Assembly: GCA_045613445.1 (NCBI GenBank)
Contig: JAZLAZ010000027.1
Location: 674 to 64,673, forward strand
Reading direction: 5' to 3'
Source of the DNA: Candidatus Enterousia sp.
GTDB taxonomy: Bacteria; Pseudomonadota; Alphaproteobacteria; Rs-D84
DNA: 64,000 nucleotides
A program made the position numbers and the translations under genes. Below, piece after piece: positions 2,015 to 57,840 of the stretch (positions within the stretch are counted from its first letter, which is position 1; each line of letters starts with the position of its first letter). The notes below the pieces were generated by a model. That model saw only the letters and a list, made by a program, of their open reading frames with translations, did no database searches and had not been told where the DNA came from.

Positions 2015-3646
2015 TTACTTCCATGCACTTGGTATTGATGACCAATCTGCCAGTCCTGTATCTTCTGAATACATTTTACCGACATGTGAATTTGATGCGT
2101 CCGGCCAAATTTCATATAAATATTTGCCACCAATTTTTGCAGAATCACCCGTCAAGGAATAGTTACGATAAAAAGTTTCTGCGAACATCTGCGCCTGTGG
2201 TGTTCCTGTTAAATCACCAAACACACCATCTTGGATGCCAGTCAGACCTGAACAGTTAAAGAATGTTCTATAAAAGATTTGTGGTGCAACATTTCCGTAT
2301 ATTTTAGCAAACAAACCACTTGGCACATCGCCAGTCAATCCTGCACATCCCGCAAAGGTATTATAAAACATCTTTTCTGCAGGTGCGCCTTCTATATCTG
2401 CGAATAAATTGTGTGGGATTTGCCCGAACAAGCTATCACACATATTAAATGTACTTTCAAACATACGCTTTACGGGCGCGCCTGTAATTCCAGCAAATAA
2501 ATCCCCAGGAATTTCACCTGTCAACTGGCCGCATCCATAAAAAGTATTTCCAAACATCAATTCTTGTGGTCCTGCGTTAAATCGACCGAACAATCCTGCT
2601 GGTATGTTACCTGTCAATCCAGAACAACCTGAAAAAGTTGCATTATACATACGCTGGGCAGGCGCACCAAAAATACCTGCGAACAATCCTGTTGGAATCG
2701 CAGTCAGCCCAGAACAGCCTGAAAATGTCGAGTGAAACATATCGCGTGCAGGTGGTCCAGAAATTCCAGCAAACAATTTGGCAGGAATTTCTCCACTTAT
2801 TCCGGAACAATTTTCAAATGTTCTGTAAAACAAGCCTTCGGTTGGTTCACCTGTGATGCCGGCAAACAAGTCGCTTGGGATTTGACCAATCAGTTTGTTA
2901 TCCCCGTAAAAAGTTCCGTAAAACATATTTTTGGCAGGTTTGCCAGAAATCCCTGAAAACAACGATGGCGGTATCGTACCAGATAAGTTTGAATTATTTC
3001 CAAATGTATAATAGAACTTTGGCTGTGTTCCATTTGCCAATGTTGAAAAAACTTGACCCAAACTGCCAGATATTCCAGCGATATTTTGATTGTTGTTAAA
3101 ACTGATTGCAGCTGTTGTCCCACCGTTATTATATGCGGTTGCTTTACCATCTAATTCAACTATATATTTACCAGGTGTATCATATTTATGACTGTACAGA
3201 ACTTCGTTAGTATTTTGTTTATCTAACACTTCTTCGTGTCCGTCCCCCCATTTTACATAGAATTTTCCCTTGGCAGATATAGTAAATTCTATATCTTTGG
3301 CTGTGTCAGTTGTATTTAATTTGAATGGGAACCCAATGAATTTGATTAGTGTATCAACTGCTTGTTGTGCTGCGATGGTATCTGCGGCGGCAGTTGTTGC
3401 GTATTCTGTTTCGCCATAATTAGTTGTCGGCCAACCATTTAACTTATAGTTTGCGACATCTATTGCAGTCAATAAATACTTCATATTTACTGCTACACTA
3501 GTATCAGTCAACTGCTCATTGATAGGGACAACGATATTCCACTTTTGCAAAATCAACTTATGAACATAATCAACATTCACAATCTGCGCAGCCCGCACAT
3601 CTAGAACAGAAAGAATCCAAATAAATGCAGCAAACAACCATTTCAT
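2015..3646 (-). CDS. Secreted repeat protein: N-terminal PKD-like domain followed by ~10 degenerate ~30-aa BspA-type LRR-like repeats (consensus LFAGIxGxPAxxMFxxTFxGCxGLTGxIP)
   Basis: Long ORF with signal peptide MKWLFAAFIWILSVLDVRA. Start chosen at the internal ATG at 3646, which is translationally coupled to the upstream small ORF stop; the ORF track start at 3685 is the alternative. Contains a WGDG...H.Y...G.Y PKD-like signature and a clearly periodic repeat. Paralog of 51773..53521. Confidence 0.75.
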   Translation of the reverse strand: MKWLFAAFIWILSVLDVRAAQIVNVDYVHKLILQKWNIVVPINEQLTDTSVAVNMKYLLTAIDVANYKLNGWPTTNYGETEYATTAAADTIAAQQAVDTLIKFIGFPFKLNTTDTAKDIEFTISAKGKFYVKWGDGHEEVLDKQNTNEVLYSHKYDTPGKYIVELDGKATAYNNGGTTAAISFNNNQNIAGISGSLGQVFSTLANGTQPKFYYTFGNNSNLSGTIPPSLFSGISGKPAKNMFYGTFYGDNKLIGQIPSDLFAGITGEPTEGLFYRTFENCSGISGEIPAKLFAGISGPPARDMFHSTFSGCSGLTAIPTGLFAGIFGAPAQRMYNATFSGCSGLTGNIPAGLFGRFNAGPQELMFGNTFYGCGQLTGEIPGDLFAGITGAPVKRMFESTFNMCDSLFGQIPHNLFADIEGAPAEKMFYNTFAGCAGLTGDVPSGLFAKIYGNVAPQIFYRTFFNCSGLTGIQDGVFGDLTGTPQAQMFAETFYRNYSLTGDSAKIGGKYLYEIWPDASNSHVGKMYSEDTGLADWSSIPSAWK

Positions 3647-3650
3647 GACA

Positions 3651-3848
3651 CTAATCCGCTGGTGGTAATGGTGGGGTAGGTACATTAAACGAACCTGTTA
3701 CAGTATATTCTCCGGCCATTGTTTGTTTTGTATCTGCAGAAACACCGACACGCGTTTCGATAGCTTCGTTCACATAATTGGTAGACGGAATAGCTGCCCA
3801 AACAGGCAATACAAAAAACACCGCCAAAAATATGACGATAACACGCAT
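3651..3848 (-). CDS. Small secreted peptide, 65 aa (signal peptide plus ~40-aa mature part), copy 1
   Basis: ORF with a strong RBS (GAGGAAG 10 nt upstream of the ATG) and N-terminal signal peptide MRVIVIFLAVFFVLPVWA. Near-identical second copy at 4148..4345 within the tandem duplication. Confidence 0.6.
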   Translation of the reverse strand: MRVIVIFLAVFFVLPVWAAIPSTNYVNEAIETRVGVSADTKQTMAGEYTVTGSFNVPTPPLPPAD

Positions 3849-3922
3849 TAGATTCCGACTTCCTCTCGTTCCTTAAATATCTATGGTAAATAGGCTACAA
3901 AAAAATACAGACTGTATGCAAC

Positions 3923-4120
3923 TGTATTTTTATAAGATTCAAAAATCTGGCACGACCATATGTTTTGTCACGCAGAACACCCCATTTTATCGTATTTGGT
4001 GCTGTGAAGTTAGATACCTCTTGTTCCTAAACAACAATTGTTCCTGTGTGAACAATTTTTCCCAACCGTTTTACAAACGCCACACCTAAATTAGCCATTG
4101 TATATGGCGGATCAACAAAA
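3923..4120 (-). pseudogene. Orphan 3' fragment of rsmD created by tandem duplication. Retains ..VDPPYTMANLGVAFVKRLGKIV.. but carries an in-frame TAG where the intact copy has Trp
   Basis: Sequence 3849-4120 is near-identical to 4346-4617, the 3' end of the intact rsmD. Reverse-strand translation gives VDPPYTMANLGVAFVKRLGKIVHTGTIVV then a stop (plus-strand cctaaacaac here versus cccaaacaac in copy 2). Confidence 0.7.
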
Positions 4121-4147
4121 AACCACTAATCCTTTTCATATTATTCT

Positions 4148-4345
4148 TTATTCTGGTGACGGTAATGGCTGGGTAGGCACTTTTAAAGAACCTGTTACAG
4201 TATATTCTCCAGCCATTGTTTGTTTTGTATCCGCAGAAACGCCGACACGCGTTTCAATAGCTTCGTTCACATAATTGGTAGACGGAATAGCTGCCCAAAC
4301 AGGCAATACAAAAAACACCGCCAAAAATATGACGATAACACGCAT
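4148..4345 (-). CDS. Small secreted peptide, 65 aa, copy 2 (C-terminal 12 aa diverged from copy 1)
   Basis: Same signal peptide and RBS as copy 1. The C-terminus is LKVPTQPLPSPE here versus FNVPTPPLPPAD in copy 1. Confidence 0.6.
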   Translation of the reverse strand: MRVIVIFLAVFFVLPVWAAIPSTNYVNEAIETRVGVSADTKQTMAGEYTVTGSLKVPTQPLPSPE

Positions 4346-4418
4346 TAAATTCCGACTTCCTCTCGTTCCTTAAAGATCTATGGTAAATAGGCTACAAAAA
4401 AATACAGACTGTATGCAA

Positions 4419-4979
4419 CTATTTTTTTACAAGAATCAAAAATCTGGCACGACCATATGTTTTGTCACGCAGAACACCCCATTTCATCGTATTTGGTACT
4501 GTGAAGTTAGATGTCTCTTGTTCCCAAACAACAATTGTTCCTGTGCGAACAATTTTCCCCAACCGTTTTACAAACGCCACACCTAAATTAGCCATTGTAT
4601 ATGGCGGATCAACAAAAATAACATCTGAGATTGGGGCATATTGTGGAATGGCGGCAATTGCATCACCATGATATGTTTGTGCCCGCCCACCAACAGATAA
4701 CATTGCCAAATTACTACGCACAGTCTGTACAGAACTGAATGCAACATCACTGAACAAAACGCAAGACTGTGGATAACGTGACAGACATTCAATTCCTAAC
4801 GCCCCACTACCTGCAAACGCATCCCAAACAGTAAATTGGGAATATGGGTCTGCAATTATACCTTCCAGCATGTTAAACAACGCAATTCGCGCCATATTCT
4901 GTGTAGGACGTGCATTTGGTGGCAATTTCAAGCGTCGTCCATGAAACATCCCAGAAATAATTTGCAATTTTGAATCCAT
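4419..4979 (-). CDS. rsmD: 16S rRNA (guanine966-N2)-methyltransferase RsmD
   Basis: 186-aa ORF with the class I methyltransferase motifs DAFAGSGALGIE and DPPY typical of RsmD. Confidence 0.85.
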   Translation of the reverse strand: MDSKLQIISGMFHGRRLKLPPNARPTQNMARIALFNMLEGIIADPYSQFTVWDAFAGSGALGIECLSRYPQSCVLFSDVAFSSVQTVRSNLAMLSVGGRAQTYHGDAIAAIPQYAPISDVIFVDPPYTMANLGVAFVKRLGKIVRTGTIVVWEQETSNFTVPNTMKWGVLRDKTYGRARFLILVKK

Positions 4980-7943: not shown

Positions 7944-8030
7944 TGGTGGGGATAGTGGGACTCGAACCCACACGGTCGCAATGACCAAAGGATTTTAAGT
8001 CCTCAGCGTCTACCATTCCGCCATATCCCC
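7944..8030 (-). tRNA. tRNA-Leu(TAA)
   Basis: 87-nt cloverleaf folded by hand: acceptor stem GGGGATA/TATCCCC, GGCGGAATGGTAGACGC D-arm typical of tRNA-Leu, anticodon loop CTTAAAA, long variable arm, T-arm GTGGGTTCGAGTCCCAC, encoded CCA. Confidence 0.85.
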
Positions 8031-8045
8031 GAAGACTTACATGTT

Positions 8046-8121
8046 TGGTGGAGCTGATGGGACTCAAACCCACGACCTCTACGATGCGAACGTAGCGCTC
8101 TATCAACTGAGCTACAACCCC
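8046..8121 (-). tRNA. tRNA-Ala(CGC)
   Basis: 76-nt cloverleaf GGGGTTGTAGCTCAGTTGATAGAGCGCTACGTTCGCATCGTAGAGGTCGTGGGTTTGAGTCCCATCAGCTCCACCA. Carries the G3:U70 alanine identity pair, anticodon loop TTCGCAT, encoded CCA. Confidence 0.8.
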
Positions 8122-8129
8122 AAAAAGCA

Positions 8130-8216
8130 TGGTGGGCGTAAGAAGACTCGAACTTCCAAGGTATTGCTACCACTAGTACCTGAAACTAGCGCGTCTACCA
8201 ATTCCGCCATACGCCC
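8130..8216 (-). tRNA. tRNA-Leu(CAG)
   Basis: 87-nt cloverleaf: acceptor stem GGGCGTA/TACGCCC, GGCGGAATTGGTAGACGC D-arm, anticodon loop TTCAGGT, long variable arm, encoded CCA. Confidence 0.85.
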
Positions 8217-23517: not shown

Positions 23518-23842
23518 GCAAGATAGACTGGACATGGCTGATGTTTATCAGAGGAAAGTCCGGGCTGCATGGGACAACGCACCGGCTAATATACCGGGCA
23601 GGGCGACCTGACGATAAGAGCAACAGTGACGAAACGATTTAATTCGAGTGAAACGGGCAATCTCTGCGTGCAGCAACTTCAAATAGACCCCCTCATATGC
23701 GTCCCACATCGGGGGCGGGTAGAAGGCTTGACATATGCAGTAATGCAATATGCAGACTAATCATGTCCACTACCGTTATACGGTATACGAAAATATACTG
23801 AATACCGGCAGAACAGAACCCGGCTTATATGTTTATCTTCAC
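23518..23842 (+). ncRNA. rnpB: RNase P RNA (bacterial type A), a compact ~325-nt version
   Basis: Universally conserved GAGGAAAGTCCGGGCT (23551 onward) and 3'-terminal ACAGAACCCGGCTTAT motifs. P2 pairing TGGACATG/CATGTCCA, P3 hairpin CTGATGTTTATCAG, P1 pairing AAGATA/TATCTT. Followed directly by a terminator. Confidence 0.85.
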
Positions 23843-23868
23843 CACGCACCTACGGGTGCGTGTTTTTT
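23843..23868 (+). terminator. Intrinsic terminator of rnpB (CACGCACC-TACG-GGTGCGTG plus TTTTTT)
   Basis: Perfect 8-bp stem and T-tract. Confidence 0.7.
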
Positions 23869-41330: not shown

Positions 41331-43511
41331 GTGAGAAACAGTTTCAATAAATTTCTTTGTATTTTCATTGGATTATCTGCGCTTTGTGCAGTTGCACATG
41401 CAGTAACGCCATTTTCAAAATATGGCGTGATTCAGAATGTTCAGAATTATTCTACGAACCCGTTTTGGAATCCAAATTCACCATATCATAATACAAATAT
41501 GCCACAACCGGTATATGCCACTGGTCCAGATGTAAACACAGATGAATGTCAACGCATCGTAACCAGTTTGGTCACAGTTCAATGTATGAACATGAACAAC
41601 TGTATTGATGCACAAATCAGCGATATACGACCTGCAATTATGTTGCAGTTATCGCGCATGACTGGTGGCAATTATGCAACTGCATGCGGTGGCTATTTAG
41701 ACGGTGCGTTTAATGATTATGTTGCACAATACGCAAATGCTGCGCCACATGGTGCTGCAACAGCATTTCCAAATGCAGTCATGCCAAATCCAAACGCATC
41801 TGGCACAGCAATCCAAATTCCAAATCCATTGGCACCCCAAGCACCTGATTGGGCAACCGACATGATGGAACGCAAACAGGAATTACAAGAATTACAATCA
41901 TTAAACGGTGCTGGCAATTCTGGTGTATATGCTGCAAATTTTCCAACCACATATGCCGATTTATCTTTTTCAGAACGCATGGAAAACGCCCAGGCTGGAT
42001 ATGAACCATATAAAGACACCAAGGTGTTTCATGAAATAAAAATTGAAGACGAAAAAACATATCTCAATCGCATAAATCGACCAGCAACCACAACAACAAA
42101 TAATTCCGCAACAACAAATAATTCTACAACAACAAACAACGCCCAACCATCACCGGTTGACACGGGTAGCAATACACCAGCAACACCGGCAGAAACCAAC
42201 ACTCCCGCATTGATAACCGAAGATATTCCTGACGAATTCGAAGCCTTACTGCCATGGTATGGCATTTTAATTGTAAAAGCAGGCAGTCTTGACAGATATG
42301 CCAGCCTTGATTTACCAATTGTATCGACAGAATATATGAAATCGCATCGCGATGAATTTTTTCCCGCAAATTCAGACAGGGCACTTGGACTCAGACGTGG
42401 CTGTACACACTCTAATCATACCGCGCACGACAAAGATGTTATCAATCGTGCTGCGCATAAAACAATGGGCGAACAAGACAGTTTTTGGTCAGGCAGTGAT
42501 TTTTATGTATATGATGGCCAAGATGTATATTGGGGATGGGCAACAATTGTTGGCGAAGTTGTATTGGCATTGCTAACCATGGGGATTAGTGCCGAGGCCA
42601 GCGCCGCAGCAGCTGCAGGACAGGCCGCATCTGCAGGACAGGCCGCAGTCGCTGGTGCACAAACAGCACATGGTGCTGTTGCTGCTGCAAGGGGGGTACG
42701 TATATCATCAAATGCATTAAAAATATTCGAATCATCCAGTTCTGCAATCAAGGCTGTAAAACTGACAAAAAATGGAAGCAAAATAGATGACGCTATCAGA
42801 TTGGCCAAAGCTGCAAAAAGCGGCCAAGATACTGCTGCGATAAAGTCGCGTGCCGATGCAGTAAAAGCATTGGCGGACGCTGGCATTACCGTAAAAAAAG
42901 GTCCAAACGCAAATACATTGAAAGCTATTGGTAGAGCATTAGCAACAGCAAAATCTACCGTCAAACCACTAACATGGACATCATCACTGTACAGACCATG
43001 GCGCTTGGTTGCAGCTGGGGTAAAAAACATAAAACCAACAACATCTAAATATCTGGGACGTGGTGCAACATGGGCAACCCGTTTCAAAACGCTGGGGGTT
43101 GTTGGTGGTGCGGTTGGACTAAACTATTTCGGACGTGAACTTCTAAAAGGATTTGGTTACAGTTCTGCTGTGTTACAAGATCCGACAACTGGTGATGTTG
43201 GATTTAACAGTTTTGGATTATTATCCGACGACAATGTCGAAGGACGCGAAAATGTCATATCACATGGCACATGGGTACAATTCGATGCCGTGGGCGGTGC
43301 CAACGAAGACGATGCATTGAACGAGGCAATGCGATTTGCTGAAGAATTGACCAAAGACATCAATTCTATCAATGCATCCGATCCATTATGCGATGTTGAT
43401 ATCTATGTTGTACAACCAGCAATCAGTAACCCAGAAAAAATACCTGGCGCCAGATCAATATATTATATATTGATGAATGACGACATGAAATTAAAAGTTC
43501 GTACAAAATAA
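41331..43511 (+). CDS. Secreted hypothetical protein, 726 aa, tandem paralog 1
   Basis: GTG start with an AGGGAA RBS. Signal peptide MRNSFNKFLCIFIGLSALCAVAHA, Thr/Asn-rich linker, internal hydrophobic segment WATIVGEVVLALLTMGISA, Ala/Lys-rich region. C-terminal domain ..PLCDVDIYVVQPAISNP...YYILMND.. is shared with 43512..45185. Confidence 0.75.
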   Translation: MRNSFNKFLCIFIGLSALCAVAHAVTPFSKYGVIQNVQNYSTNPFWNPNSPYHNTNMPQPVYATGPDVNTDECQRIVTSLVTVQCMNMNNCIDAQISDIRPAIMLQLSRMTGGNYATACGGYLDGAFNDYVAQYANAAPHGAATAFPNAVMPNPNASGTAIQIPNPLAPQAPDWATDMMERKQELQELQSLNGAGNSGVYAANFPTTYADLSFSERMENAQAGYEPYKDTKVFHEIKIEDEKTYLNRINRPATTTTNNSATTNNSTTTNNAQPSPVDTGSNTPATPAETNTPALITEDIPDEFEALLPWYGILIVKAGSLDRYASLDLPIVSTEYMKSHRDEFFPANSDRALGLRRGCTHSNHTAHDKDVINRAAHKTMGEQDSFWSGSDFYVYDGQDVYWGWATIVGEVVLALLTMGISAEASAAAAAGQAASAGQAAVAGAQTAHGAVAAARGVRISSNALKIFESSSSAIKAVKLTKNGSKIDDAIRLAKAAKSGQDTAAIKSRADAVKALADAGITVKKGPNANTLKAIGRALATAKSTVKPLTWTSSLYRPWRLVAAGVKNIKPTTSKYLGRGATWATRFKTLGVVGGAVGLNYFGRELLKGFGYSSAVLQDPTTGDVGFNSFGLLSDDNVEGRENVISHGTWVQFDAVGGANEDDALNEAMRFAEELTKDINSINASDPLCDVDIYVVQPAISNPEKIPGARSIYYILMNDDMKLKVRTK

Positions 43512-45185
43512 ATGATATCACGAATCGTTTGTCTTTTTATCTCAATATGTTTACTGCCATCATTATCGCATGCGGTTCAGATCGAAACACCATGTGCAAC
43601 GCAAATTTACGCATCAAAACTGGCACAAACTGTAAGTACAATTGACGAATCCGATGACGAAGAAGTTATCAAACAATGGATTTATTCTATATTTACAAAC
43701 AAAGATACTGTATCCGATATCTTAAAATGTCCAGAATTAAATATCTCTGATAACGCTACGATAAAATTTACCCCCATAAAATATGTATTTCCAATGGGGC
43801 GCGAAGTCGTCATAAATTATGAAACCCAACCAAAAATATTAAAACAACGATTGGCACTGGCAGACAAGCGCGACTTGCCACCTTATGACGCAAACCCACG
43901 CATCGGCGAAATGGGGGATGGAACAATATGGACAAATACAGATCCTGCATGGTATGCAATAATGGTTGTTGAATCTGGTGCATTAAACAATTTTGTTGGT
44001 GAACATAAAAACAACACCATATCAGTTCAATATATACATGATAATATTGACGCCCTGTACCCAAAAAATCGTGGTTGTACAACAAAACACGCACTGGCCC
44101 GTGATTCCAAACCAATCAATCGTGCTGTAAAACAGGCTGTTGATATTGAAAATGATTCAAATGACTATTATGTGGCAGGTGATGCAAATCTGGCATGGAT
44201 TGGATATGCAGAAATCGCAATGGATGTTGCAATAACTGTTGCAACCATGGGCGGTGGCGTATTGATATCAGGCGCCACAAAATCTGCCCGTGCATCACGC
44301 GCATTAAAGGGCATGGCCACATCACTGAAACAATTACGCAATCTGGATTCTGTTCGTGATTACATAAAATATACATCACGCGCAGCACAACTGACAGATG
44401 AAATAAAAAAGTTAGACAAAGTTACCGATGCTGCAAAAATCGCAGAAAAAACAGCCGAACTTGATAAATTAAAAGATGCTATCAAGGGTTTAGAATCAAT
44501 CGATGATGTAAAAAAATATAAGCAGACATCCGAAACCTTTTCAGATTTGAATAAATATCGCAGAACTTTGAACGGAATCAAAGCGTTAAAACAGGCACAG
44601 CGTGGAAATATAATCGCACGCGGCGTCAAGGTTGCAAAAAGTGCAAACGCCGCCATGTCAGGCAATAAATTGATTGCAAAAGGTGCAAAACTAGGTCGCG
44701 CCAGCAAAGTGTCAACCCGTGTAAACGATTGGCTGTTTCATTCAACATTGAAAAACATTGGCATGCTGGGAAAAATGGAAACATTTGGTGGTGCAATTTA
44801 CGGTGGCATACAATTTATTGGTGGCATGATGTATGACTTTACAGAAACCAGCACAGGCGAATTTACAAACGATATTCAATTTCAACCTTTGTTATTATTA
44901 TCCGCAGACGATTTGCAAGGCGGTCAAGCCGATAAAATAAATTATGGAATGTGGTTGATGTGGTCTGGGGATTCGACCAATCCCGCCGATGATGACGCAG
45001 CATATTTGCAAGCAATGGACTTTGCTGCAAAATTCCACGAAGATTTAATGGATGTTCAAAATAACACAAACCGTCCATGTAATGTTGATATATATGTTGC
45101 AAAGCCTATCATACGCAACCCAGGTTCGGCCAATCCAGAATTATACTATCTGATTATGAACGATACGCCATGGACAACAAAATAA
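43512..45185 (+). CDS. Secreted hypothetical protein, 557 aa, tandem paralog 2
   Basis: Starts 1 nt after the stop of the previous gene. Signal peptide MISRIVCLFISICLLPSLSHA. Shares RGCT..H....INRA...hydrophobic segment, Lys/Ala-rich region and the C-terminal RPCNVDIYVAKPIIRNP..LYYLIMND with 41331..43511. Confidence 0.75.
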   Translation: MISRIVCLFISICLLPSLSHAVQIETPCATQIYASKLAQTVSTIDESDDEEVIKQWIYSIFTNKDTVSDILKCPELNISDNATIKFTPIKYVFPMGREVVINYETQPKILKQRLALADKRDLPPYDANPRIGEMGDGTIWTNTDPAWYAIMVVESGALNNFVGEHKNNTISVQYIHDNIDALYPKNRGCTTKHALARDSKPINRAVKQAVDIENDSNDYYVAGDANLAWIGYAEIAMDVAITVATMGGGVLISGATKSARASRALKGMATSLKQLRNLDSVRDYIKYTSRAAQLTDEIKKLDKVTDAAKIAEKTAELDKLKDAIKGLESIDDVKKYKQTSETFSDLNKYRRTLNGIKALKQAQRGNIIARGVKVAKSANAAMSGNKLIAKGAKLGRASKVSTRVNDWLFHSTLKNIGMLGKMETFGGAIYGGIQFIGGMMYDFTETSTGEFTNDIQFQPLLLLSADDLQGGQADKINYGMWLMWSGDSTNPADDDAAYLQAMDFAAKFHEDLMDVQNNTNRPCNVDIYVAKPIIRNPGSANPELYYLIMNDTPWTTK

Positions 45186-45616: not shown

Positions 45617-45874
45617 TTATTCAATCCACATCAATGCACGACCTTCAACAGGCTGAACTTTTTCTGGTTTACCCAATGGTACACTATCAAATCTGTTATC
45701 GTTACCAGCAGCCACAGAACGCGCATCCGTACCAACCGGCAAGCGTTCAACATTTACCGTACCCTTGGTTAAATTGCTAGCATTGCTGACATACGACACA
45801 GTTGGCACACTGCCGACCTGTGCAAATGCGCAAAAACAAAACATGCAGAAAAACACCATTGATACAAAACGCAT
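45617..45874 (-). CDS. Small secreted protein, 85 aa
   Basis: ATG at 45874 with a strong AAGGAG RBS at 8-nt spacing. Signal peptide MRFVSMVFFCMFCFCAFAQ. The ORF track's earlier start lacks an RBS. Confidence 0.6.
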   Translation of the reverse strand: MRFVSMVFFCMFCFCAFAQVGSVPTVSYVSNASNLTKGTVNVERLPVGTDARSVAAGNDNRFDSVPLGKPEKVQPVEGRALMWIE

Positions 45875-45940
45875 ATTCTTTCTCCTTGAACTTATGTTCA
45901 TAATCATAACATATTTTGCTACCCAAATCCAACATTTTTT

Positions 45941-51306: not shown

Positions 51307-51745
51307 AAATGTATCACGTGTTTTTATTGCGGCAGACCATCGTGGGGTCGGTCTAAAGTTATACTTGATTGAAATGTTGGCCGCAGCCGGATACAACACT
51401 GTAAATCTGGGCGTTGACGACCCGAACACATCTGTTGATTATCCTGATATTGCGGCGACACTGGCGGATGCCATGTTGAACGAACCAGATTCCCGTGGCA
51501 TTATTATTTGTGGTACAGGAGCAGGAATTATGATTGCTGCAAACAGATACAAGCACATTCGCGCATCGCGTTGCAATACACCAAATCAGGCACGCGACGA
51601 CCGTTTTCACGATGACACAAATGTAATTGCATTGGCGGCAGATGATATCGATATCGAAGTTGCATTTCTGTGTGTCCAAGCATTCTTGGAATCACCATTT
51701 GATGCATCAGAGCGTCGCATTCGTCGCATACAAAAGATATCATAA
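51299..51745 (+). CDS. rpiB: Ribose-5-phosphate isomerase B
   Basis: RpiB/LacAB family motifs (IAADHRGVGLK ... GIIICGTGAGIMIAANR). Confidence 0.85.
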   Translation: MNKNVSRVFIAADHRGVGLKLYLIEMLAAAGYNTVNLGVDDPNTSVDYPDIAATLADAMLNEPDSRGIIICGTGAGIMIAANRYKHIRASRCNTPNQARDDRFHDDTNVIALAADDIDIEVAFLCVQAFLESPFDASERRIRRIQKIS

Positions 51746-51776
51746 AAAAATCCCCCAAACTGGGGGATTTTTTTAC
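51744..51776. terminator. Bidirectional terminator hairpin AAAAAAATCCCCCAAACTGGGGGATTTTTTT, 31-nt core identical to the copy at 53844
   Basis: Shared between the rpiB 3' end (plus strand) and the 3' end of the minus-strand repeat-protein gene. Confidence 0.7.
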
Positions 51777-53521
51777 ATTGGCACAATCGTAGTTATATCA
51801 TAAACATGATAAATCATATCGTTATATTTTATTTTTAGTTTATTTGTACTATCCCGCATGATATTTGTTTCAATTGGTGTCATTGCCCCATAGTACAAAG
51901 CATCATCAACAACGACATGTAATGCAGGTTCAGTTGTTTTATACGACAACAAACCCACCGTATCATCATTTACATGTAACTTTCGCAAATTCCCACGATA
52001 ACACATACGAGCATCTGTTGCGCCAAGAACAGAATTCGGAAAGTCATCAGGGCACGGCGCACACGCAACTTTTTTGTTCCAATCTTGTTCAAACCCAGTA
52101 ATATACTGATAATATCTTGGCGGACATTTGGTAGTCAAACTAGTCGCATTAAAAATACCACCCATCACCCCTAATTTATTGTCATTATTTAACCCAGCGA
52201 ACAAAGTATCTGGCACAAAACCAGACAAATTTGAACATCCACCGAACATATATCCGAACATTTCAACATCTAAGGTTCCAGAAATATTTCCAAACAATTT
52301 TTCAGGTAATTTTGTCAAACCAGAACAATAATAAAAAGTTGAATAAAACATACTTTTTGCAATTCCACTTACACCGGCAAACAAATTTTCTGGTATCGAC
52401 TTTATCCCAGAACATCTGCTAAAAGTTCCTTTGAACATTGAATCTGCTGCACCATACACTCCTGCAAATAAGTTTTCTGGTATTGCGGTTATGTTTGTAC
52501 ATCCATTAAAAGTATTCTCAAACATCCCAATACTTGAACCACTAATTCCCAAAAATAAATTCTTTGGAATTTCAGTCAGTTTTGAGCATCCATAAAAGGT
52601 ATGTGAAAATGCAGCACGTGCATTACCTGTTACATGAGAAAATAAATTTTCAGGAATTTTTTTCAAATTTGAGCACCCCGAAAAAGTAGCACAAAACAAC
52701 CATTCCCCCGCTACTGTAATACCAGCGAACAGATTTTCTGGGATATTTTCTAATTTACTGCACCCATAAAAAGTATAGTAAAACACAGAATTATTTATAC
52801 CCGTAATACTTGCAAATAATCCTGTTGGCACATTTACTAAACTAGTACATTCTGCAAATGTATACGAAAACAAACTATAACCAATGCCATGAACACCAGA
52901 AAACAAATCTGCGGGCACAGTTGTTAAACCCGTACAACCACGAAAAGTTTCTTTGAACATCGCATCACCAATATTTACAATAAAATTTGGGAACAAATTT
53001 TCTGGCAATTCCTTCAACCCAACACAGCCAGCAAATGCTTGCGCAAACATATTGCTAAATCCATAATAATCACCCGCAAACAAATTTTTTGGAATCGATA
53101 CAAGATTTTTACAATTTTGAAAAACACCGTTAAATCGGACTGGCAAATATGTACCACTGCTATTACGTAATGTCGGAAACAACGCTGTCAAAGAGCCCTC
53201 TAAACGACTGATATTCAAATTATTCGCAAACGATATTGACGCTGTAGCAGAAGTATATCCAGTTGCAACACCATCAAATCCAATTATATACTCATTGGCA
53301 ATGTCATATATATGCGAATACACTGTTTGAATCGTATCTGTTCTATTTATCGTTTCAACAGTTCCATCTCCCCAATCCACCGTAAAAAAACCTTGTGCCG
53401 ACATACTAAAACTGAATTCCACTGTATCAGGTGTGGTCACAACCGTAAACTTCGGCTTTATTGACTCCGCATGTGCAACAGAACATAGCATAATTAAACA
53501 TATACATAAAATTTTTATCAT
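51773..53521 (-). CDS. Secreted PKD-like plus BspA-type LRR-like repeat protein, paralog 2
   Basis: ATG at 53521 with a GGGGGG RBS; the TTG at 53548 is the alternative. Signal peptide MIKILCICLIMLCSVAHA, VDWGDGTVE..YSHIYD PKD-like signature, then ~12 repeats of FxxTFxGCxxLxxIPxNLFAGIxG. Confidence 0.75.
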   Translation of the reverse strand: MIKILCICLIMLCSVAHAESIKPKFTVVTTPDTVEFSFSMSAQGFFTVDWGDGTVETINRTDTIQTVYSHIYDIANEYIIGFDGVATGYTSATASISFANNLNISRLEGSLTALFPTLRNSSGTYLPVRFNGVFQNCKNLVSIPKNLFAGDYYGFSNMFAQAFAGCVGLKELPENLFPNFIVNIGDAMFKETFRGCTGLTTVPADLFSGVHGIGYSLFSYTFAECTSLVNVPTGLFASITGINNSVFYYTFYGCSKLENIPENLFAGITVAGEWLFCATFSGCSNLKKIPENLFSHVTGNARAAFSHTFYGCSKLTEIPKNLFLGISGSSIGMFENTFNGCTNITAIPENLFAGVYGAADSMFKGTFSRCSGIKSIPENLFAGVSGIAKSMFYSTFYYCSGLTKLPEKLFGNISGTLDVEMFGYMFGGCSNLSGFVPDTLFAGLNNDNKLGVMGGIFNATSLTTKCPPRYYQYITGFEQDWNKKVACAPCPDDFPNSVLGATDARMCYRGNLRKLHVNDDTVGLLSYKTTEPALHVVVDDALYYGAMTPIETNIMRDSTNKLKIKYNDMIYHVYDITTIVPM

Positions 53522-53548
53522 ACACCCCCCGATATAATGGTGGGGCAA

Positions 53549-53843
53549 TAATTACTGTCAAGGTTTCGGTCAGAAATATTACCCCAAAAGAAAACCGCCA
53601 CAAAAATGACGGTCGGGAAGGTTGATAAACATACAAAGTAATGCCCCCATGGTCTTTAGGAAATTTCCCTGAACATACACCACAGGCCCCCCAACCACAA
53701 TCAGGGTAAAAACGGTGCGATGGCACCGAATTGCTTCGGATTACGATGCATTCGCACCGACTTTGTATGAGCTTATCAAGGCCCGAACCGACATCCCTGT
53801 CAGTTCAGTTTACATTTTATTAAAATAACATATGCTATTTCAA
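53549..53843 (-). other. 325-bp noncoding leader upstream of the repeat-protein gene, with nested inverted repeats
   Basis: No credible ORF. Minus-strand transcript would contain GGTGCGA..(CCGAA-GCAA-TTCGG)..TCGCACC and further hairpins. Confidence 0.4.
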
Positions 53844-53877
53844 TAAAAAAATCCCCCAAACTGGGGGATTTTTTTAT
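53844..53877. terminator. Bidirectional terminator hairpin AAAAAAATCCCCCAAACTGGGGGATTTTTTT, identical to the copy at 51744
   Basis: Immediately downstream of the minus-strand gene 53874..54593. Confidence 0.7.
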
Positions 53878-54593
53878 TTCATTTTACATCCAATCGCTTT
53901 TTTCAAACCTGCTGTTATATCTTTGTTATTTTCATATATTTTTAACACATTTTCTGTTTCAGCCGCATGCGTTCTTAAATAACCATCTAAAATTGCAACA
54001 GCCATATCTGTAAATACTTTATCATCTTTAATAGAAATTTTACCACTTGATAACATATCAAAATAAACACGTTCTTTCGCAGACATACGACCAATAATAT
54101 CCCCAGATGCCGCCACCAATTTTGCAACTTGCGTATCACTTAAACGATGTTTTCCTTGCAGTTCTTTTAACTCGCTCATCATATCAATTGTATCTAAATC
54201 CATTTTTGTTTGCTTAAAATACCATGCAGTAACAGACAACCACCATAATGACAACAGCAGATTTGCCAGCCAAGTACCATGCGCACGAAATCCAGGATTT
54301 GGATTGACTTTTAATTCACCTGTTTTATATGTGTTATCATCAACAATATACTTATCCACAGGAATATATGCATCATGGATTGCCTTTTTATACGGCATAT
54401 AGATTTTATTTTTCGCACGACACAGCATTGTATCCGGTGTAGATTGCAAAAACATCCAAGAAACATTTCCTATAAAAAACAACGCAATTGCACCCGCAAT
54501 ATTCGTTTGAACAAAATTCGAAAACATTAAATCTTTACGAGTAAAATTTGTATACTTTTTATACAAAGCATCATTTTTTTCGTTTTTTTGCAT
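53874..54593 (-). CDS. Hypothetical membrane protein, 239 aa (two hydrophobic helices)
   Basis: ORF with predicted transmembrane helices (IAGAIALFFIGNVSWMF and LLLSLWWLSVTAWYF). Confidence 0.55.
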   Translation of the reverse strand: MQKNEKNDALYKKYTNFTRKDLMFSNFVQTNIAGAIALFFIGNVSWMFLQSTPDTMLCRAKNKIYMPYKKAIHDAYIPVDKYIVDDNTYKTGELKVNPNPGFRAHGTWLANLLLSLWWLSVTAWYFKQTKMDLDTIDMMSELKELQGKHRLSDTQVAKLVAASGDIIGRMSAKERVYFDMLSSGKISIKDDKVFTDMAVAILDGYLRTHAAETENVLKIYENNKDITAGLKKAIGCKMK

Positions 54594-56925: not shown

Positions 56926-57807
56926 ATGAAAAAATTAGTTTCTTTGGCGGCATTGACCGCAATTCTGACAGGATGCGCAGATCTAAGTACAACAGGCCGC
57001 AGCACTAATTACGGTGCAGACGGTTTTGGCGAAGAACCATTGGTTGCAACAGCTGCGCCAGCTGAATCACTAAACGACGCATATTTATTGGCAGCTGCAC
57101 CAAAATATTATGTTGGATCTGCATACAAGGTTGATGATGTACAATACATCCCTGTAGAAGATATGACATACAATCAAACAGGTATCGCGGGTATAATCCC
57201 TACTGAATTAAACAGCAGCAAAACCAGTAACGGCGAAGTGTTTGATATAAATCAAATGGTCGCAACCAGCAAAACATTACCATTGCCAACAATTGCCCGT
57301 GTAACTAATTTAGACAACGGTCAATCTGTTATTGTACGCGTAAACAATCGCGGTCCGTTTGTAAACACTCGTTTAATGGACTTATCGCCAGCAGCCGCAC
57401 AAAAAATCGGTCTAAACGGTCAAGCAAAAGTACAAATTCAAGTTATGCCAGAACAATCAACTGCTGTTAAAAACGCAACATTGGGTGCATCTACACCACA
57501 ACCAGTTGTACAGCCAACAGCAACGACACCGATTGAAACAACAACAGTTGCTGCAACACCAGCATCTGGCCCATACAGCATCCAATTGGCCGCTTTCTAT
57601 GCACAAGACAGCGCAGATGCATTAGCAAACCGTATAAAAACATACGGCGATGCAGTCGTCGTCAACGAAGGCGACCTGTTCAAAGTCCGCATTATCAACA
57701 TGGATGCCACCAAGGCACGTAGCGTTATTGATGCATTACGCACAAACGAAGGCATGGCCCCAGGCTTATTAAAAGATGGTCGTTGGGTAAACGCTGACAG
57801 CATTTAA
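56926..57807 (+). CDS. rlpA: Septal-ring lytic transglycosylase RlpA-like lipoprotein (DPBB domain plus C-terminal SPOR domain)
   Basis: Lipobox LTGCAD. DPBB region ..IARVTNLDNGQSVIVRVNNRGPF... C-terminal SPOR-like YSIQLAAFYAQDSADALANRI. Confidence 0.8.
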   Translation: MKKLVSLAALTAILTGCADLSTTGRSTNYGADGFGEEPLVATAAPAESLNDAYLLAAAPKYYVGSAYKVDDVQYIPVEDMTYNQTGIAGIIPTELNSSKTSNGEVFDINQMVATSKTLPLPTIARVTNLDNGQSVIVRVNNRGPFVNTRLMDLSPAAAQKIGLNGQAKVQIQVMPEQSTAVKNATLGASTPQPVVQPTATTPIETTTVAATPASGPYSIQLAAFYAQDSADALANRIKTYGDAVVVNEGDLFKVRIINMDATKARSVIDALRTNEGMAPGLLKDGRWVNADSI

Positions 57808-57840
57808 TAAAAATCCCCCAAAATGGGGGATTTTTATTTC
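57807..57840. terminator. Bidirectional terminator hairpin (AAAAATCCCCCAAAATGGGGGATTTTT), same family
   Basis: Sits between rlpA (plus strand) and a convergent minus-strand gene. Confidence 0.65.

What the first reader, a model, noticed from the sequence alone, without database searches (positions are those of the whole stretch)
2015..3646. Two-member family of secreted PKD-domain plus BspA-like LRR-like repeat proteins
2015..3646 and 51773..53521 are paralogs. Both have a signal peptide, a PKD-like N-domain (xWGDG...YSHxYD...G.Y.I), then 10-12 tandem ~30-aa repeats with the core (A/T)FxGCxGLTGxIPxxLFAGIxG. The core resembles the AFxxCxxLTSIxIP BspA-type LRR, but with a longer period. BspA-like proteins are adhesins or invasins in host-associated bacteria, so these are candidate host-interaction proteins of this organism. 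The repeat period and the PKD fusion look unusual for the family.
Basis: partly seen in the sequence, partly recalled or inferred. Interest (0 to 1): 0.55.

Follow-up and report, generated by a model that had tools for sequence, protein, structure and literature searches.

The report
Secreted PKD-plus-solenoid repeat proteins of Enterousia
Two genes of a tiny-genome gut bacterium (Candidatus Enterousia) encode secreted proteins made of a PKD-like domain and a long-period, BspA/LRR-like repeat array. They belong to a very large uncharacterised family, also used in phage tail proteins, that most likely binds other cells or surfaces.

Summary
Both genes are on the minus strand: p1 is 2015..3646 (543 aa) and p2 is 51773..53521 (582 aa). 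They are paralogs (38% identity, E 2e-72). Each has a Sec-type signal peptide, a WGDG...YSHxY beta-sandwich domain and a repeat array. p1 has 9 clear repeats of 31 aa; p2 has 11 of 29 aa.

- The N-domain is PKD-like only at family level.
- The repeats belong to the FxGCxxL (BspA/LRR_5, DUF285, TIGR02167 'PARCEL') superfamily but are not canonical. They give 0 matches to the 23-residue TpLRR pattern. p2 scores 26.0 bits against LRR_5 (cut-off 27.7); p1 is not recognised.
- Both AlphaFold models are confident (pLDDT 92 and 90), helix-free, and have no Foldseek neighbour in the PDB.

The family is far larger than two members: 2314 clusters at 50% identity, proteins up to 7626 aa, and at least 14 loci in one related MAG. 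The PKD-plus-repeat module also occurs in a Klebsiella P2-like phage tail protein.

New here:
- p1 sits in conserved synteny (rsmD-p1-L25).
- p1 is preceded by a conserved 65-aa secreted, fibre-like small protein, tandemly duplicated in this window.

Most likely function is extracytoplasmic binding or adhesion in a partner-dependent bacterium. It is a new variant of a known kind, of moderate interest.

The parts
2015..3646 (-). p1 coding sequence (543 aa plus stop): signal peptide, helical N-region, PKD-like domain, 31-aa repeat array, C-cap
   Evidence: ORF. Orthologues of 543-557 aa at 61-75% identity in conserved synteny. AF2 pLDDT 92.2.
3590..3646 (-). p1 signal peptide (aa 1-19, MKWLFAAFIWILSVLDVRA|AQ)
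   Evidence: Sequence inspection (n-, h- and c-regions, V-R-A cleavage motif). Model helix 2-16, then pLDDT below 50 at 15-19. No SignalP was available.
3335..3589 (-). p1 N-terminal region (aa 20-104): three 'beta-bridge plus helix' units (QIVNVDYVHKLI, VAVNMKYLLTAIDVAN, YATTAAADTIAAQQAVDTLI)
   Evidence: DSSP of the model. Conserved in orthologues and paralogues, with invariant N24 Y27 H29 N54 M55 Y57. An HMM of this region hits 77 ORFs in the fetched loci. No Pfam hit.
3062..3334 (-). p1 PKD-like beta-sandwich plus transition (aa 105-195; WGDG at 133-136, YSHKYD at 151-156)
   Evidence: Seven strands at 108-194 in the model. The family profile hits PKD domains 4xed and 1wgo, and 21 of 56 members hit Pfam PKD. 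p1 itself has no Pfam hit.
2147..3061 (-). p1 repeat array (aa 196-500): N-cap plus 9 clear units of 31 (30) aa, xxMFxxTFxGCSGLTGxIPxxLFAGIxGxPx
   Evidence: Anchor spacing. pLDDT 94-98. No helix. Beta-bridges recur at the LTG and IxG positions with period 31. phrog_9915 E 1.3e-32.
2018..2146 (-). p1 C-terminal cap (aa 501-543, ...GKYLYEIWP...TGLADWSSIPSAWK)
   Evidence: Conserved in orthologues. The same ending type (..GLDDYDDLPGNW..) occurs in the Klebsiella phage tail protein.
3651..3848 (-). Small ORF B: 65-aa secreted protein (MRVIVIFLAVFFVLPVWA|AIPSTNYVNEAIETRV...YTVTGSFNVPTPPLPPAD). Its stop lies 4 nt before the p1 start.
   Evidence: ORF. Homologues lie directly upstream of family genes in 35 of 65 loci, and longer fibre-like versions in about 5 more. 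It is called as a gene in public data (P0196, 100% identical).
4148..4345 (-). Small ORF A: a second copy of the 65-aa gene (95% identical over the first 62 residues)
3664..4618 (.). 497-bp tandem duplication (1.9 copies, 94% identity) carrying the small ORF, its upstream region and the 3' end of rsmD. The internal rsmD copy (about 3925-4130) contains stop codons.
   Evidence: TRF, the repeat finder, sequence reading.
51773..53521 (-). p2 coding sequence (582 aa plus stop): signal peptide, PKD-like domain, 29-aa repeat array, Cys-rich plus beta C-terminal domain
   Evidence: ORF. P0121 is 100% identical (NCBI gene call of 572 aa, which must begin about 10 codons downstream) and P0122 is 81% identical. 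AF2 pLDDT 89.6.
53468..53521 (-). p2 signal peptide (aa 1-18, MIKILCICLIMLCSVAHA|ES)
   Evidence: Inspection. pLDDT below 50 for residues 1-19.
53192..53467 (-). p2 PKD-like domain (aa 19-110; WGDG at 50-53, YSHIYD at 67-72)
   Evidence: Strands 25-109 in the model. Aligns with the p1 domain. Family-level PKD evidence.
52127..53191 (-). p2 repeat array (aa 111-465): 11 units of 29 aa, xxMFxxTFxGCSxLxxIPENLFAGIxG
   Evidence: LRR_5 26.0 bits, below the 27.7 cut-off. TIGR02167 66.7 bits, above 30, but the best stretch covers only profile positions 1-12. phrog_9915 E 2.9e-82.
51776..52126 (-). p2 C-terminal extension (aa 466-582): Cys-rich module (CPPRYYQYITGFE..C.PCP..C) and a beta-rich domain (LHVNDD...YHVYDITT)
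   Evidence: Weak Ephrin_rec_like hit (E 0.015-0.056). Relative P0164 passes that model at 24.8 against 23.1 bits. Shared with the 409-420-aa paralogues P0137, P0141 and P0142 and others. Strands 513-573 in the model.
53518..53601 (-). 27-aa ORF upstream of p2 (MAVFFWGNISDRNLDSNYCPTIISGGV). Its stop overlaps the p2 ATG. It may be a remnant of the small-ORF signal peptide.
   Evidence: Only a weak similarity (VIFVAVFF, E about 1) to the small ORF. Speculative.
51742..51775 (.). Hairpin ATAAAAAAATCCCCCAAACTGGGGGATTTTTTTA (terminator-like, bidirectional) at the 3' end of p2
53843..53876 (.). Identical copy of the same hairpin upstream of p2, between orf53874 and the p2 promoter region

Best explanation
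p1 and p2 are Sec-exported binding proteins of Candidatus Enterousia (order Rs-D84, gut Alphaproteobacteria with ~0.75-1.0 Mb genomes). Each consists of a divergent PKD-like beta-sandwich that leads into a helix-free stacked-repeat (solenoid-like) array. The repeat is a long-period (29-31 aa) derivative of the FxGCxxL repeat shared by BspA/LRR_5, DUF285 and TIGR02167 ('PARCEL') proteins.

The array most likely provides an extended ligand-binding surface. Invariant aromatic and hydrophobic residues (MF, TF, C, L, IP, LF, I) would form the core. The intervening positions, which are specific to each repeat, would form the surface.

p1 is a conserved, vertically inherited gene. It is probably co-transcribed with a small secreted fibre-like protein whose mature N-terminus resembles that of p1. 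I infer that the two assemble through these N-terminal segments into a stalk-plus-head structure outside the cytoplasm.

p2 is a lineage-specific paralogue. It lacks that N-terminal segment and the intact small gene, and it carries a different C-terminal Cys-rich/beta domain.

The proposed role is attachment to a partner cell, a host surface or a gut polymer. This parallels the use of the same module at the distal end of a P2-like phage baseplate/tail protein.

Shown: sequence anatomy, family membership, synteny, gene pairing and the model's regularity. Inferred: export beyond the periplasm, assembly with the small protein, and binding function.
For: - Paralogy and repeats.
- Signal peptides by inspection.
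- Confident models without helices in the array. Beta-bridges recur at the same motif positions every 31 residues.
- Foldseek against BFVD gives 23 hits with E<=1e-3. They are proteins named LRR, LRR_5, BspA family, 26-residue repeat or PKD. The top hit is full-length (E 5e-20, TMq 0.55).
- PKD at family level.
- Relatives and the phage protein pass LRR_5 and DUF285 and TIGR02167. NCBI names relatives 'BspA family leucine-rich repeat surface protein' or 'leucine-rich repeat protein'.
- The same PKD-like domain, repeats and C-cap are fused to gpI and Big_2 in Klebsiella phage ST16-OXA48phi5.4.
- p1 is syntenic between rsmD and L25 in 12 or more genomes. Orthologue column conservation in the repeats (0.80) is comparable to the other domains. 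Repeat-specific residues are conserved, while the xIPxxLF and GIxG positions vary.
- Small ORF pairing is seen in 35 of 65 loci, and it accompanies tandem paralogues too. Longer upstream versions weakly match a tail-fibre PHROG (E 0.003).
- The small-protein HMM also matches the N-terminus of large family proteins.
- The organism is predicted to be an obligate symbiont or parasite lacking standard transporters (PMC12306168).
- The family is large: at least 14 loci in one MAG, 2314 clusters, proteins up to 7626 aa.
Against: - There is no experimental datum on localisation, expression or ligand.
- A Sec signal peptide in a diderm only guarantees the periplasm. No outer-membrane anchor, autotransporter domain, lipobox or secretion-system gene was seen next to the genes.
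- About 25 of 65 p1-type genes have no small ORF upstream, so the pairing is not obligatory.
- Assembly with the small protein rests on motif resemblance and gene order only.
- No solved structure matches either model (best PDB E 0.03 and 0.39). The fold assignment therefore rests on predicted structures, and I could not inspect coordinates.
- p1's orthologue conservation is like that of housekeeping genes. That fits a fixed cellular partner as well as an external ligand.
Confidence: 0.55

Rival explanations
1. The proteins are periplasmic or envelope structural proteins with a housekeeping role, such as envelope scaffolding or cell-shape/division accessory. They would not be adhesins.
For: - They carry only a Sec signal peptide and no recognisable surface-anchoring or secretion signal.
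- p1 lies in conserved synteny among housekeeping genes and has native composition.
- p1 orthologue identity (61-75%) is similar to RsmD and GpmI.
- p2 sits among envelope genes: bamD, murJ, M23 peptidase and bactofilin.
Against: - Housekeeping envelope proteins are rarely expanded to at least 14 paralogous loci per genome, or built into 4000-7600-aa multi-module proteins.
- The same module sits on a phage tail protein and in proteins named surface proteins.
- p2-type genes are poorly conserved; only 100% and 81% homologues exist, the rest at or below 51%.
Confidence: 0.2
2. The genes are phage-derived receptor-binding (tail-fibre-like) genes: remnants of prophages or components of a tailocin-like particle.
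For: - Strong match to phrog_9915 (E 2.9e-82 and 1.3e-32).
- BFVD structural hits to phage proteins, including a full-length one.
- A Klebsiella P2-like tail protein I carries the same module.
- The upstream small or longer proteins have tail-fibre-like motifs.
- p2 and the adjacent orf53874 have lower GC and GC3 than their neighbours and are bracketed by identical hairpins.
Against: - No phage structural, integrase or lysis genes are among the ORFs adjacent to either gene.
- Both proteins have Sec signal peptides, which tail proteins normally lack.
- p1 is syntenic across 12 or more species with native GC3.
- An IMG/VR scan with p1 patterns found no relative.
- Transfer may well have gone from bacterium to phage.
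Confidence: 0.1
3. The genes form a variable surface-antigen repertoire for immune or phage evasion, analogous to PARCEL-containing Mycoplasma lipoproteins. Diversity would be generated by recombination among paralogues.
For: - A multi-copy family with tandem paralogues and module duplication.
- The TIGR02167/PARCEL hit of p2.
- A recent 497-bp tandem duplication next to p1.
Against: - No near-identical DNA repeats or simple-sequence tracts lie within the genes.
- There is no dyad symmetry beyond synonymous-codon shuffles.
- p1 orthologues are conserved repeat by repeat across species.
- There is no lipobox.
Confidence: 0.1

Closest known systems
BspA-type / TpLRR leucine-rich repeat surface proteins (Pfam PF13306 LRR_5; Tannerella forsythia BspA, Treponema denticola LrrA, TvBspA)
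   Same: - The [AT]FxxCxxL core followed by I/L-P.
- Secreted or surface proteins with long tandem arrays, found in host-associated microbes.
- Relatives of p2 (P0172, P0164) and the phage homologue pass LRR_5.
- NCBI names one relative (a Clostridia MAG protein, MBO5143849.1) 'BspA family leucine-rich repeat surface protein'.
- BspA and LrrA mediate adhesion and co-aggregation (PMC2843621).
   Different: - The period is 29-31 residues, not 23.
- The TpLRR pattern matches none of 197 family proteins.
- p2 is just below and p1 far below the LRR_5 threshold.
- The extra segment GxPxxxMFxx carries a second aromatic pair.
- No solved LRR structure reached E 1e-3 by Foldseek (best: TLR8 at E 0.03 for p1).
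PARCEL / TIGR02167 (Liste_lipo_26) / DUF285 26-residue repeat surface proteins (Roske et al. 2010, PMC2996958)
   Same: - p2 exceeds the TIGR02167 cut-off (66.7 against 30 bits).
- The shared motif is MFxGCxxLt.
- The family is modular and multi-copy, has a punctate distribution that includes phages, and has unknown function.
   Different: - Only the first 12 of 26 profile positions align.
- The canonical second half (WDTSNVTxM) is absent.
- The period is 29-31, not 25-26.
- No excess DNA dyad symmetry.
- p1 does not reach the cut-off (15.3 bits).
PKD domain (Pfam PF00801 / PF18911)
   Same: - The WxxGDG ... HxY..xGxYxV/I motif, about 85 residues, with 7 predicted strands.
- The family profile hits the PDB PKD domains 4xed (E 1.3e-4) and SorCS2 1wgo (E 8.5e-4).
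- 21 of 56 N-domains hit Pfam PKD.
   Different: - p1 and p2 themselves give no Pfam PKD hit.
- Matches cover only the central ~40 profile positions.
- Foldseek ranks PKD 4xed at only E 1.0.
- The last strand runs into the N-cap of the repeat array.
Klebsiella phage ST16-OXA48phi5.4 'tail protein I' gp35 (NC_049450, 1008 aa) and PHROG phrog_9915
   Same: The same module order: a YGDG PKD-like domain, then FxGCxSL..IP..LF repeats, then a ..GL.DY..LP..W cap. Identity to p1 repeats is 30-33%. phrog_9915 matches at E 2.9e-82 for p2.
   Different: - The phage module is fused behind gpI and Big_2 and has no signal peptide.
- Its repeat period is 27, with obvious 13/14-residue half-repeats.
- Its function is also untested.

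Membership tests
BspA-type LRR (Pfam PF13306 LRR_5 / TpLRR) | Whole-protein score at or above the Pfam gathering threshold (27.7 bits) | tested here: not met
   p2 scores 26.0 bits (E 9.5e-6). p1 has no hit. Relatives P0172 (39.4) and P0164 (30.4) and the phage gp35 (41.3) do pass.
BspA-type LRR (Pfam PF13306 LRR_5 / TpLRR) | [quoted passage not shown] | tested here: not met
   0 matches in p1, p2 and 195 homologues, including with a relaxed version for p1 and p2. The period is 29-31.
BspA-type LRR (Pfam PF13306 LRR_5 / TpLRR) | LRR solenoid fold comparable to solved LRR structures | tested here: inconclusive
   The models are confident and periodic. They match predicted phage proteins named LRR_5 or BspA. 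No PDB chain reaches E<=1e-3, and coordinates could not be inspected.
PARCEL / TIGR02167 26-residue repeat | NCBIfam TIGR02167 score at or above 30 bits | tested here: met
   Met for p2 (66.7 bits). Not met for p1 (15.3 bits).
PARCEL / TIGR02167 26-residue repeat | Full 25-26-residue unit in tandem | tested here: not met
   The printed best stretches cover only profile positions 1-12 of 26. The period is 29-31.
PARCEL / TIGR02167 26-residue repeat | Dyad symmetry of the repeat-coding DNA (PMC2996958) | tested here: not met
   Counts of reverse-complement k-mers do not exceed synonymous-codon shuffles in p1. They are only marginal in p2 (15 of 300 shuffles at k=7). The antisense similarity seen by tblastn (E 1e-4) comes from the PENLF codons.
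PKD domain (PF00801 / PF18911) | Profile match at or above the gathering threshold | tested here: inconclusive
   p1 and p2 have no hit. Paralogues P0013, P0026, P0009 and P0010 pass marginally. 21 of 56 N-domains hit PKD at E<=0.01. The family profile hits PDB PKD domains at E 1.3e-4 and 8.5e-4.
PKD domain (PF00801 / PF18911) | Beta-sandwich of ~80-90 residues with the PKD topology | tested here: inconclusive
   There are seven predicted strands over ~87 residues. Foldseek places PKD 4xed only at E 1.0, while cupin and CPE-like sandwiches score similarly.
Sec-secreted protein | N-terminal signal peptide with an AxA-type cleavage site | tested here: met
   This was judged by inspection only: n-, h- and c-regions with VRA|AQ and AHA|ES. 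It is conserved in orthologues. No dedicated predictor was available.

The most novel reading that the evidence does not exclude
The family defines an undescribed two-component surface appendage of the reduced-genome gut Alphaproteobacteria (Rs-D84/Enterousia). A small fibre-like secreted protein and a large protein would share a mature N-terminal assembly motif. The large protein would display a PKD-like domain and a new helix-free solenoid fold built from 29-31-residue doublet repeats, with no solved homologue. The appendage would be the organism's means of attaching to the partner cell it depends on. Phages would have borrowed, or donated, the same head as a receptor-binding module.
Probability: 0.25. 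Interest if true: 0.65.

Novelty: new variant of a known kind. Interest (0 to 1): 0.4.

Why it matters
Rs-D84/Enterousia bacteria are widespread in animal and human guts. They have ~0.75-1.0 Mb genomes without respiration or standard transporters and are thought to live off other cells (PMC12306168). How they attach to a partner is not known.

This family has at least 14 loci in one related MAG, reaches thousands of residues in some proteins, and is partly paired with a fibre-like small protein. That makes it an obvious candidate for the attachment machinery.

The repeat is also a long-period branch of the BspA/PARCEL superfamily. Current Pfam and NCBIfam models mostly miss it, and it has no structural representative. 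A structure would fill a gap, and a dedicated profile would improve annotation of gut metagenomes and gut phages.

Without any experiment, however, it remains one more uncharacterised surface-repeat family.

Tried and rejected
- Foldseek of both models against the PDB found nothing at E<=1e-3.
- Profile search of full-length family alignment A1 against PDB sequences gave only weak hits: PKD 4xed at E 0.018 and FLS2 at E 0.03.
- An IMG/VR scan with p1-derived patterns gave 59 pattern matches, none a relative.
- Exact look-up of P0121's contig found nothing on record.
- Pfam on the small ORF, the p1 N-region and the p2 C-domain gave nothing above threshold. PHROGs on the 65-aa ORF gave nothing.
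- The PARCEL idea was followed because tblastn found an antisense match in p2. It was rejected as a defining property after the codon-shuffle control.
- The 'terminator' hairpins predicted at 3819-3840 and 4316-4337 lie inside the small ORF's signal-peptide coding sequence. They are artefacts of the scan.
- The small ORF is not universal. It is absent upstream of about 25 of 65 p1-type genes, including all copies seen in Mgla_MAG_35-bin_11.
- The recurrent sub-threshold NCBIfam hit to CPR pilus protein PamR (NF058578, 12-45 bits against a cut-off of 300) covers only the WGDG..H.Y beta-sandwich motif. I did not take it as meaningful.
Full report
**1. What is at the coordinates**

Both features are real genes on the minus strand.
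- p1 runs 2015..3646 (543 aa from MKWLF). The mechanical ORF extends to 3685.
- p2 runs 51773..53521 (582 aa from MIKIL). The mechanical ORF extends to 53548.

BLASTP of p1 against p2 gives 38% identity over 425 columns, E 2e-72. Further alignments in shifted registers (E 5e-39 to 1e-27) show that both contain the same internal repeat. tblastn finds no third copy in the window.

Anchoring on the P..LF motif gives the repeat counts.
- p1 has nine units spaced 31,31,30,31,31,31,31,30.
- p2 has eleven units spaced 29 (one 30, one 31).

Both proteins begin with a textbook Sec signal peptide: VRA|AQ in p1 and AHA|ES in p2. This was judged by inspection only. NCBI's own call of p2 (P0121) is 572 aa against the 582 aa used here. 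By length and position it begins at Met11 (MLCSVAHA...), which would cut off the signal peptide.

There are no DNA-level tandem repeats inside either gene. The arrays are therefore old and diverged, not contingency loci.

**2. Domain anatomy**

AlphaFold2 with family alignments gave confident models: p1 pLDDT 92.2 and pTM 0.80; p2 pLDDT 89.6 and pTM 0.85.

p1 comprises:
- a signal peptide (1-19);
- a seven-strand sandwich (105-195) carrying WGDG and YSHKYD;
- the repeat array (196-500);
- a cap ending IPSAWK.

p2 goes straight from the signal peptide to the sandwich. After its array it has a Cys-rich module and a beta-rich domain (466-582). The Cys-rich module matches Ephrin_rec_like weakly (E 0.015-0.056), and relative P0164 passes that model. 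The 409-420-aa paralogues P0137, P0141 and P0142 share this C-terminus.

In the arrays DSSP finds 0-1% helix and about 10% strand. In p1 the strand residues recur at the same motif positions, the LTG of GLTG and the IxG of AGIxG, every 31 residues. That is what parallel stacking of one unit per repeat would give. I could not inspect coordinates, so 'solenoid' is an inference from this periodicity, the confidence values and the structural matches below.

**3. PKD-like domain**

Neither p1 nor p2 hits Pfam PKD. The evidence is at family level.
- Several paralogues pass PKD or PKD_4 marginally.
- Of 56 diverse N-domains, 21 hit PKD and 20 hit PKD_4. No other family recurs.
- A profile of these domains finds the solved PKD domains 4xed (E 1.3e-4) and SorCS2 1wgo (E 8.5e-4), and more weakly ColH PKD domains.

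The matches cover the WGDG...HxY..GxYxI core only. Foldseek does not single out PKD folds. 'Divergent PKD-like' is a fair description; strict membership is not established for these two proteins.

**4. Relation of the repeat to BspA/LRR_5 and PARCEL**

The family consensus from 644 unique 31-mers is AGISGAPA..MF..TF.GCSGLTG.IPegLF. The TFxGCxxL..IP part is the signature shared by LRR_5, DUF285 and TIGR02167.

Test results:
- p2 scores 26.0 bits against LRR_5 (cut-off 27.7). p1 scores nothing.
- p2 scores 66.7 bits against TIGR02167 (cut-off 30), but the best stretch printed aligns only profile positions 1-12 of 26, as it does for three relatives. p1 scores 15.3 bits.
- The published 23-residue TpLRR pattern (PMC2843621) matches 0 of 197 family proteins.
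- The DNA dyad symmetry that gives PARCELs their name (PMC2996958) is not in excess of synonymous-codon shuffles. The antisense similarity seen by tblastn comes from the quasi-palindromic codons of P-E-N-L-F.

Evidence that the family nevertheless connects to these families:
- Relatives P0172 and P0164 and a phage homologue pass LRR_5, and P0172 and the phage protein also pass DUF285.
- NCBI names relatives 'BspA family leucine-rich repeat surface protein', 'leucine-rich repeat protein' or 'InlB B-repeat-containing protein'.

Recognition falls as the period lengthens: the 27-aa phage repeats are recognised, the 29-aa p2 repeats are borderline, and the 31-aa p1 repeats are invisible to the models. 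In the phage protein the F..C spacing alternates 13 and 14 residues. In the Enterousia unit, LFAGIsG resembles TFxGCsG. The long repeat therefore looks like a doublet of ~15-residue half-units. This is a lead, not a result.

**5. Structural neighbours**

Neither model has a PDB neighbour at E<=1e-3. The best hits are TLR8 at E 0.03 for p1 and E 0.39 for p2.

Against BFVD (predicted viral structures), p1 has 23 hits at E<=1e-3. The top hit is a 538-aa 'leucine-rich repeat protein' of a gut myovirus contig aligned end to end (E 5e-20, TMq 0.55). It is followed by proteins named LRR_5, '26-residue repeat', 'BspA family' and 'PKD domain-containing'.

The fold class is thus shared with sequence-annotated LRR_5/BspA proteins but is not represented among solved structures as Foldseek sees them.

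**6. Phage connection**

- tblastn against phage genomes finds the repeats in Bacillus phage G gp353 and in Klebsiella P2-like prophages.
- In phage ST16-OXA48phi5.4, gp35 ('tail protein I', 1008 aa) reads Tail_P2_I + Big_2 + a YGDG PKD-like segment + 27-aa FxGCxSL..IP..LF repeats + a ..GLDDYDDLPGNW cap. It lies between baseplate and tail-fibre genes.
- Both window proteins match phrog_9915, of unknown function, at E 2.9e-82 (p2) and 1.3e-32 (p1).

The whole PKD-like-plus-array-plus-cap cassette is therefore a mobile binding module. It is not an unusual fusion peculiar to this organism.

**7. Organism, family size and synteny**

The closest loci come from MAGs named Candidatus Enterousia or 'Alphaproteobacteria bacterium', from yak, sheep, goat, buffalo, chicken and human gut. 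Flanking L25 is 87-91% identical to theirs.

Enterousia (order Rs-D84) has 0.75-1.0 Mb genomes, no TCA cycle or respiration and no standard transporters. It is proposed to be an obligate symbiont or parasite (PMC12306168).

Family size:
- At least 357 relatives in species-representative genomes. One MAG contributes 14 of the best 80 loci.
- 2314 clusters at 50% identity (679 at E<=1e-30). Some proteins reach 7626 aa with up to 17 matched stretches, the best of them spanning the PKD-like domain plus array.
- Many proteins carry two or three WGDG modules.

p1 is a conserved gene. The order rsmD - p1 - L25 holds in 12 or more genomes at 61-75% identity, similar to RsmD and GpmI. In several genomes there are tandem paralogues. 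Its GC and GC3 are native.

Across p1 orthologues, the residues that differ between repeats (for example AKNMFYGTF, AQRMYNATF, VKRMFESTF) are conserved. The xIPxxLF and GIxG positions vary. That suggests a fixed, specific surface on one side of the array.

p2 is lineage-specific. Only 100% and 81% homologues exist, and the rest are at or below 51%. The 81% orthologue lies between bamD and rpiB without the extra orf53874. p2 and orf53874 have lower GC3 than their neighbours, and identical 34-nt hairpins bracket p2.

**8.

The stop codon of a 65-aa ORF (3651..3848, minus strand) lies four nucleotides before the p1 start codon. It encodes a signal peptide and the mature sequence AIPSTNYVNEAIETRVGVSADTKQTMAGEYTVTGSFNVPTPPLPPAD.

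A 497-bp tandem duplication (3664-4618, 94% identity) has produced a second copy at 4148..4345. It also left a stop-containing copy of the rsmD 3' end.

Homologues of the small ORF lie directly upstream of family genes, including tandem paralogues, in 35 of 65 loci with a p1-type N-region. About five more distant loci have longer upstream proteins of 150-270 aa with the same ends and YPSALAVKNAL-type repeats. One of these weakly matches a tail-fibre PHROG (E 0.003).

The small-protein HMM also aligns to the first residues of large family proteins. Both mature N-termini read [IL]-x-[SN]-x-x-Y-V followed by a helix.

p2 lacks this N-region. It has only a 27-aa ORF upstream with faint similarity to the small ORF. 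The p2-type loci examined also lack the small gene.

The pairing is frequent but not universal. About 25 of 65 p1-type genes lack it.

**9. Mechanism proposed**

Shown: exported proteins by sequence, a PKD-like domain plus regular repeat array, family and phage relationships, and gene pairing.

Inferred: the array is a ligand-binding scaffold. p1 and the small protein assemble through their similar N-terminal segments into a stalk-plus-head structure. The structure mediates attachment of a partner-dependent bacterium, in the same way the module is placed at the business end of a phage baseplate protein.

The main weakness is localisation. In a diderm a Sec signal peptide reaches only the periplasm, and I saw no anchor or secretion system nearby. 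A periplasmic or envelope role is the main rival (confidence 0.2). Prophage remnant and antigenic-variation readings are less likely (0.1 each), for the reasons given under the rival explanations.

**10. Verdict**

These are divergent, long-period relatives of BspA/LRR_5-PARCEL repeat proteins with a PKD-like domain. They belong to a very large uncharacterised family rather than a two-member curiosity.

The novelty lies in four points:
- the 29-31-residue helix-free repeat, which current profiles mostly miss and which has no solved structure;
- the expansion of the family in Rs-D84-related gut MAGs, an order whose characterised genomes are reduced to under about 1 Mb (PMC12306168);
- the conserved small partner gene;
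- the shared module with phage tail proteins.

Interest is moderate (0.4), because nothing here overturns expectations and no function has been tested.

Noticed in passing
window 3664-4618: A 497-bp tandem duplication (1.9 copies, 94% identity). It duplicates the 65-aa small ORF and its upstream region and leaves a stop-containing copy of the rsmD 3' end at about 3925-4130.
   Followed up: yes
window 51742-51775, 53843-53876, 57805-57838: A 34-nt palindromic hairpin, ATAAAAAAATCCCCCAAACTGGGGGATTTTTTTA, occurs twice identically on either side of p2 and once at 82% identity after the rlpA-like gene. It looks like a reused bidirectional terminator. It might also mark the boundaries of an inserted segment.
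   Followed up: partly
window 53874-54593 (-): A 239-aa ORF between bamD and p2 has very low GC (32.5%, GC3 0.246). It is absent from the 81%-identical relative, where the p2 orthologue directly follows bamD (L081). It is probably a recent insertion of unknown function.
   Followed up: partly
window 45617-45907 (-): A 96-aa ORF has a signal peptide followed by VPTVSYVSNASNLTKGTVNVERLPVGTDARSVAAGNDNRF. This is a fibre-like N-terminal motif resembling the small ORF upstream of p1, but the ORF is not next to a family gene.
   Followed up: no
window 41331-43511 (+) and 43512-45185 (+): Two adjacent paralogous secreted proteins (726 and 557 aa) share a C-terminal domain (...C.VDIYV..P.I.NP...YY.(L/I)MND). 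This is another secreted paralogue pair of unknown function.
   Followed up: no
L001 (NC_049450.1 23679-26705): The Klebsiella P2-like prophage 'tail protein I' is a 1008-aa fusion of gpI, Big_2, a PKD-like segment and about 20 FxGC repeats. The F..C spacing alternates 13 and 14 residues, which suggests the 27-31-aa repeat is a doublet of half-repeats.
   Followed up: partly
L014 1-8644: In a related Enterousia MAG, murJ-bamD lies directly next to gpmI-tadA-rsmD-p1-L25. In this window the two blocks are about 47 kb apart, so the genome has been rearranged between the lineages.
   Followed up: no
window 52374-52745 (+ strand, antisense of p2): The antisense strand of the p2 repeats translates to a periodic PANKFSGI...EHPLKV pattern with stops. 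The cause is that the codons for IPENLFAG are quasi-palindromic. This produced a spurious tblastn hit (E 1e-4).
   Followed up: yes
window 23520-23843 (+); 7947-8216 (-): An RNase P RNA (class A, 169.8 bits) and three tRNA genes lie in the window. They are ordinary housekeeping RNAs.
   Followed up: no
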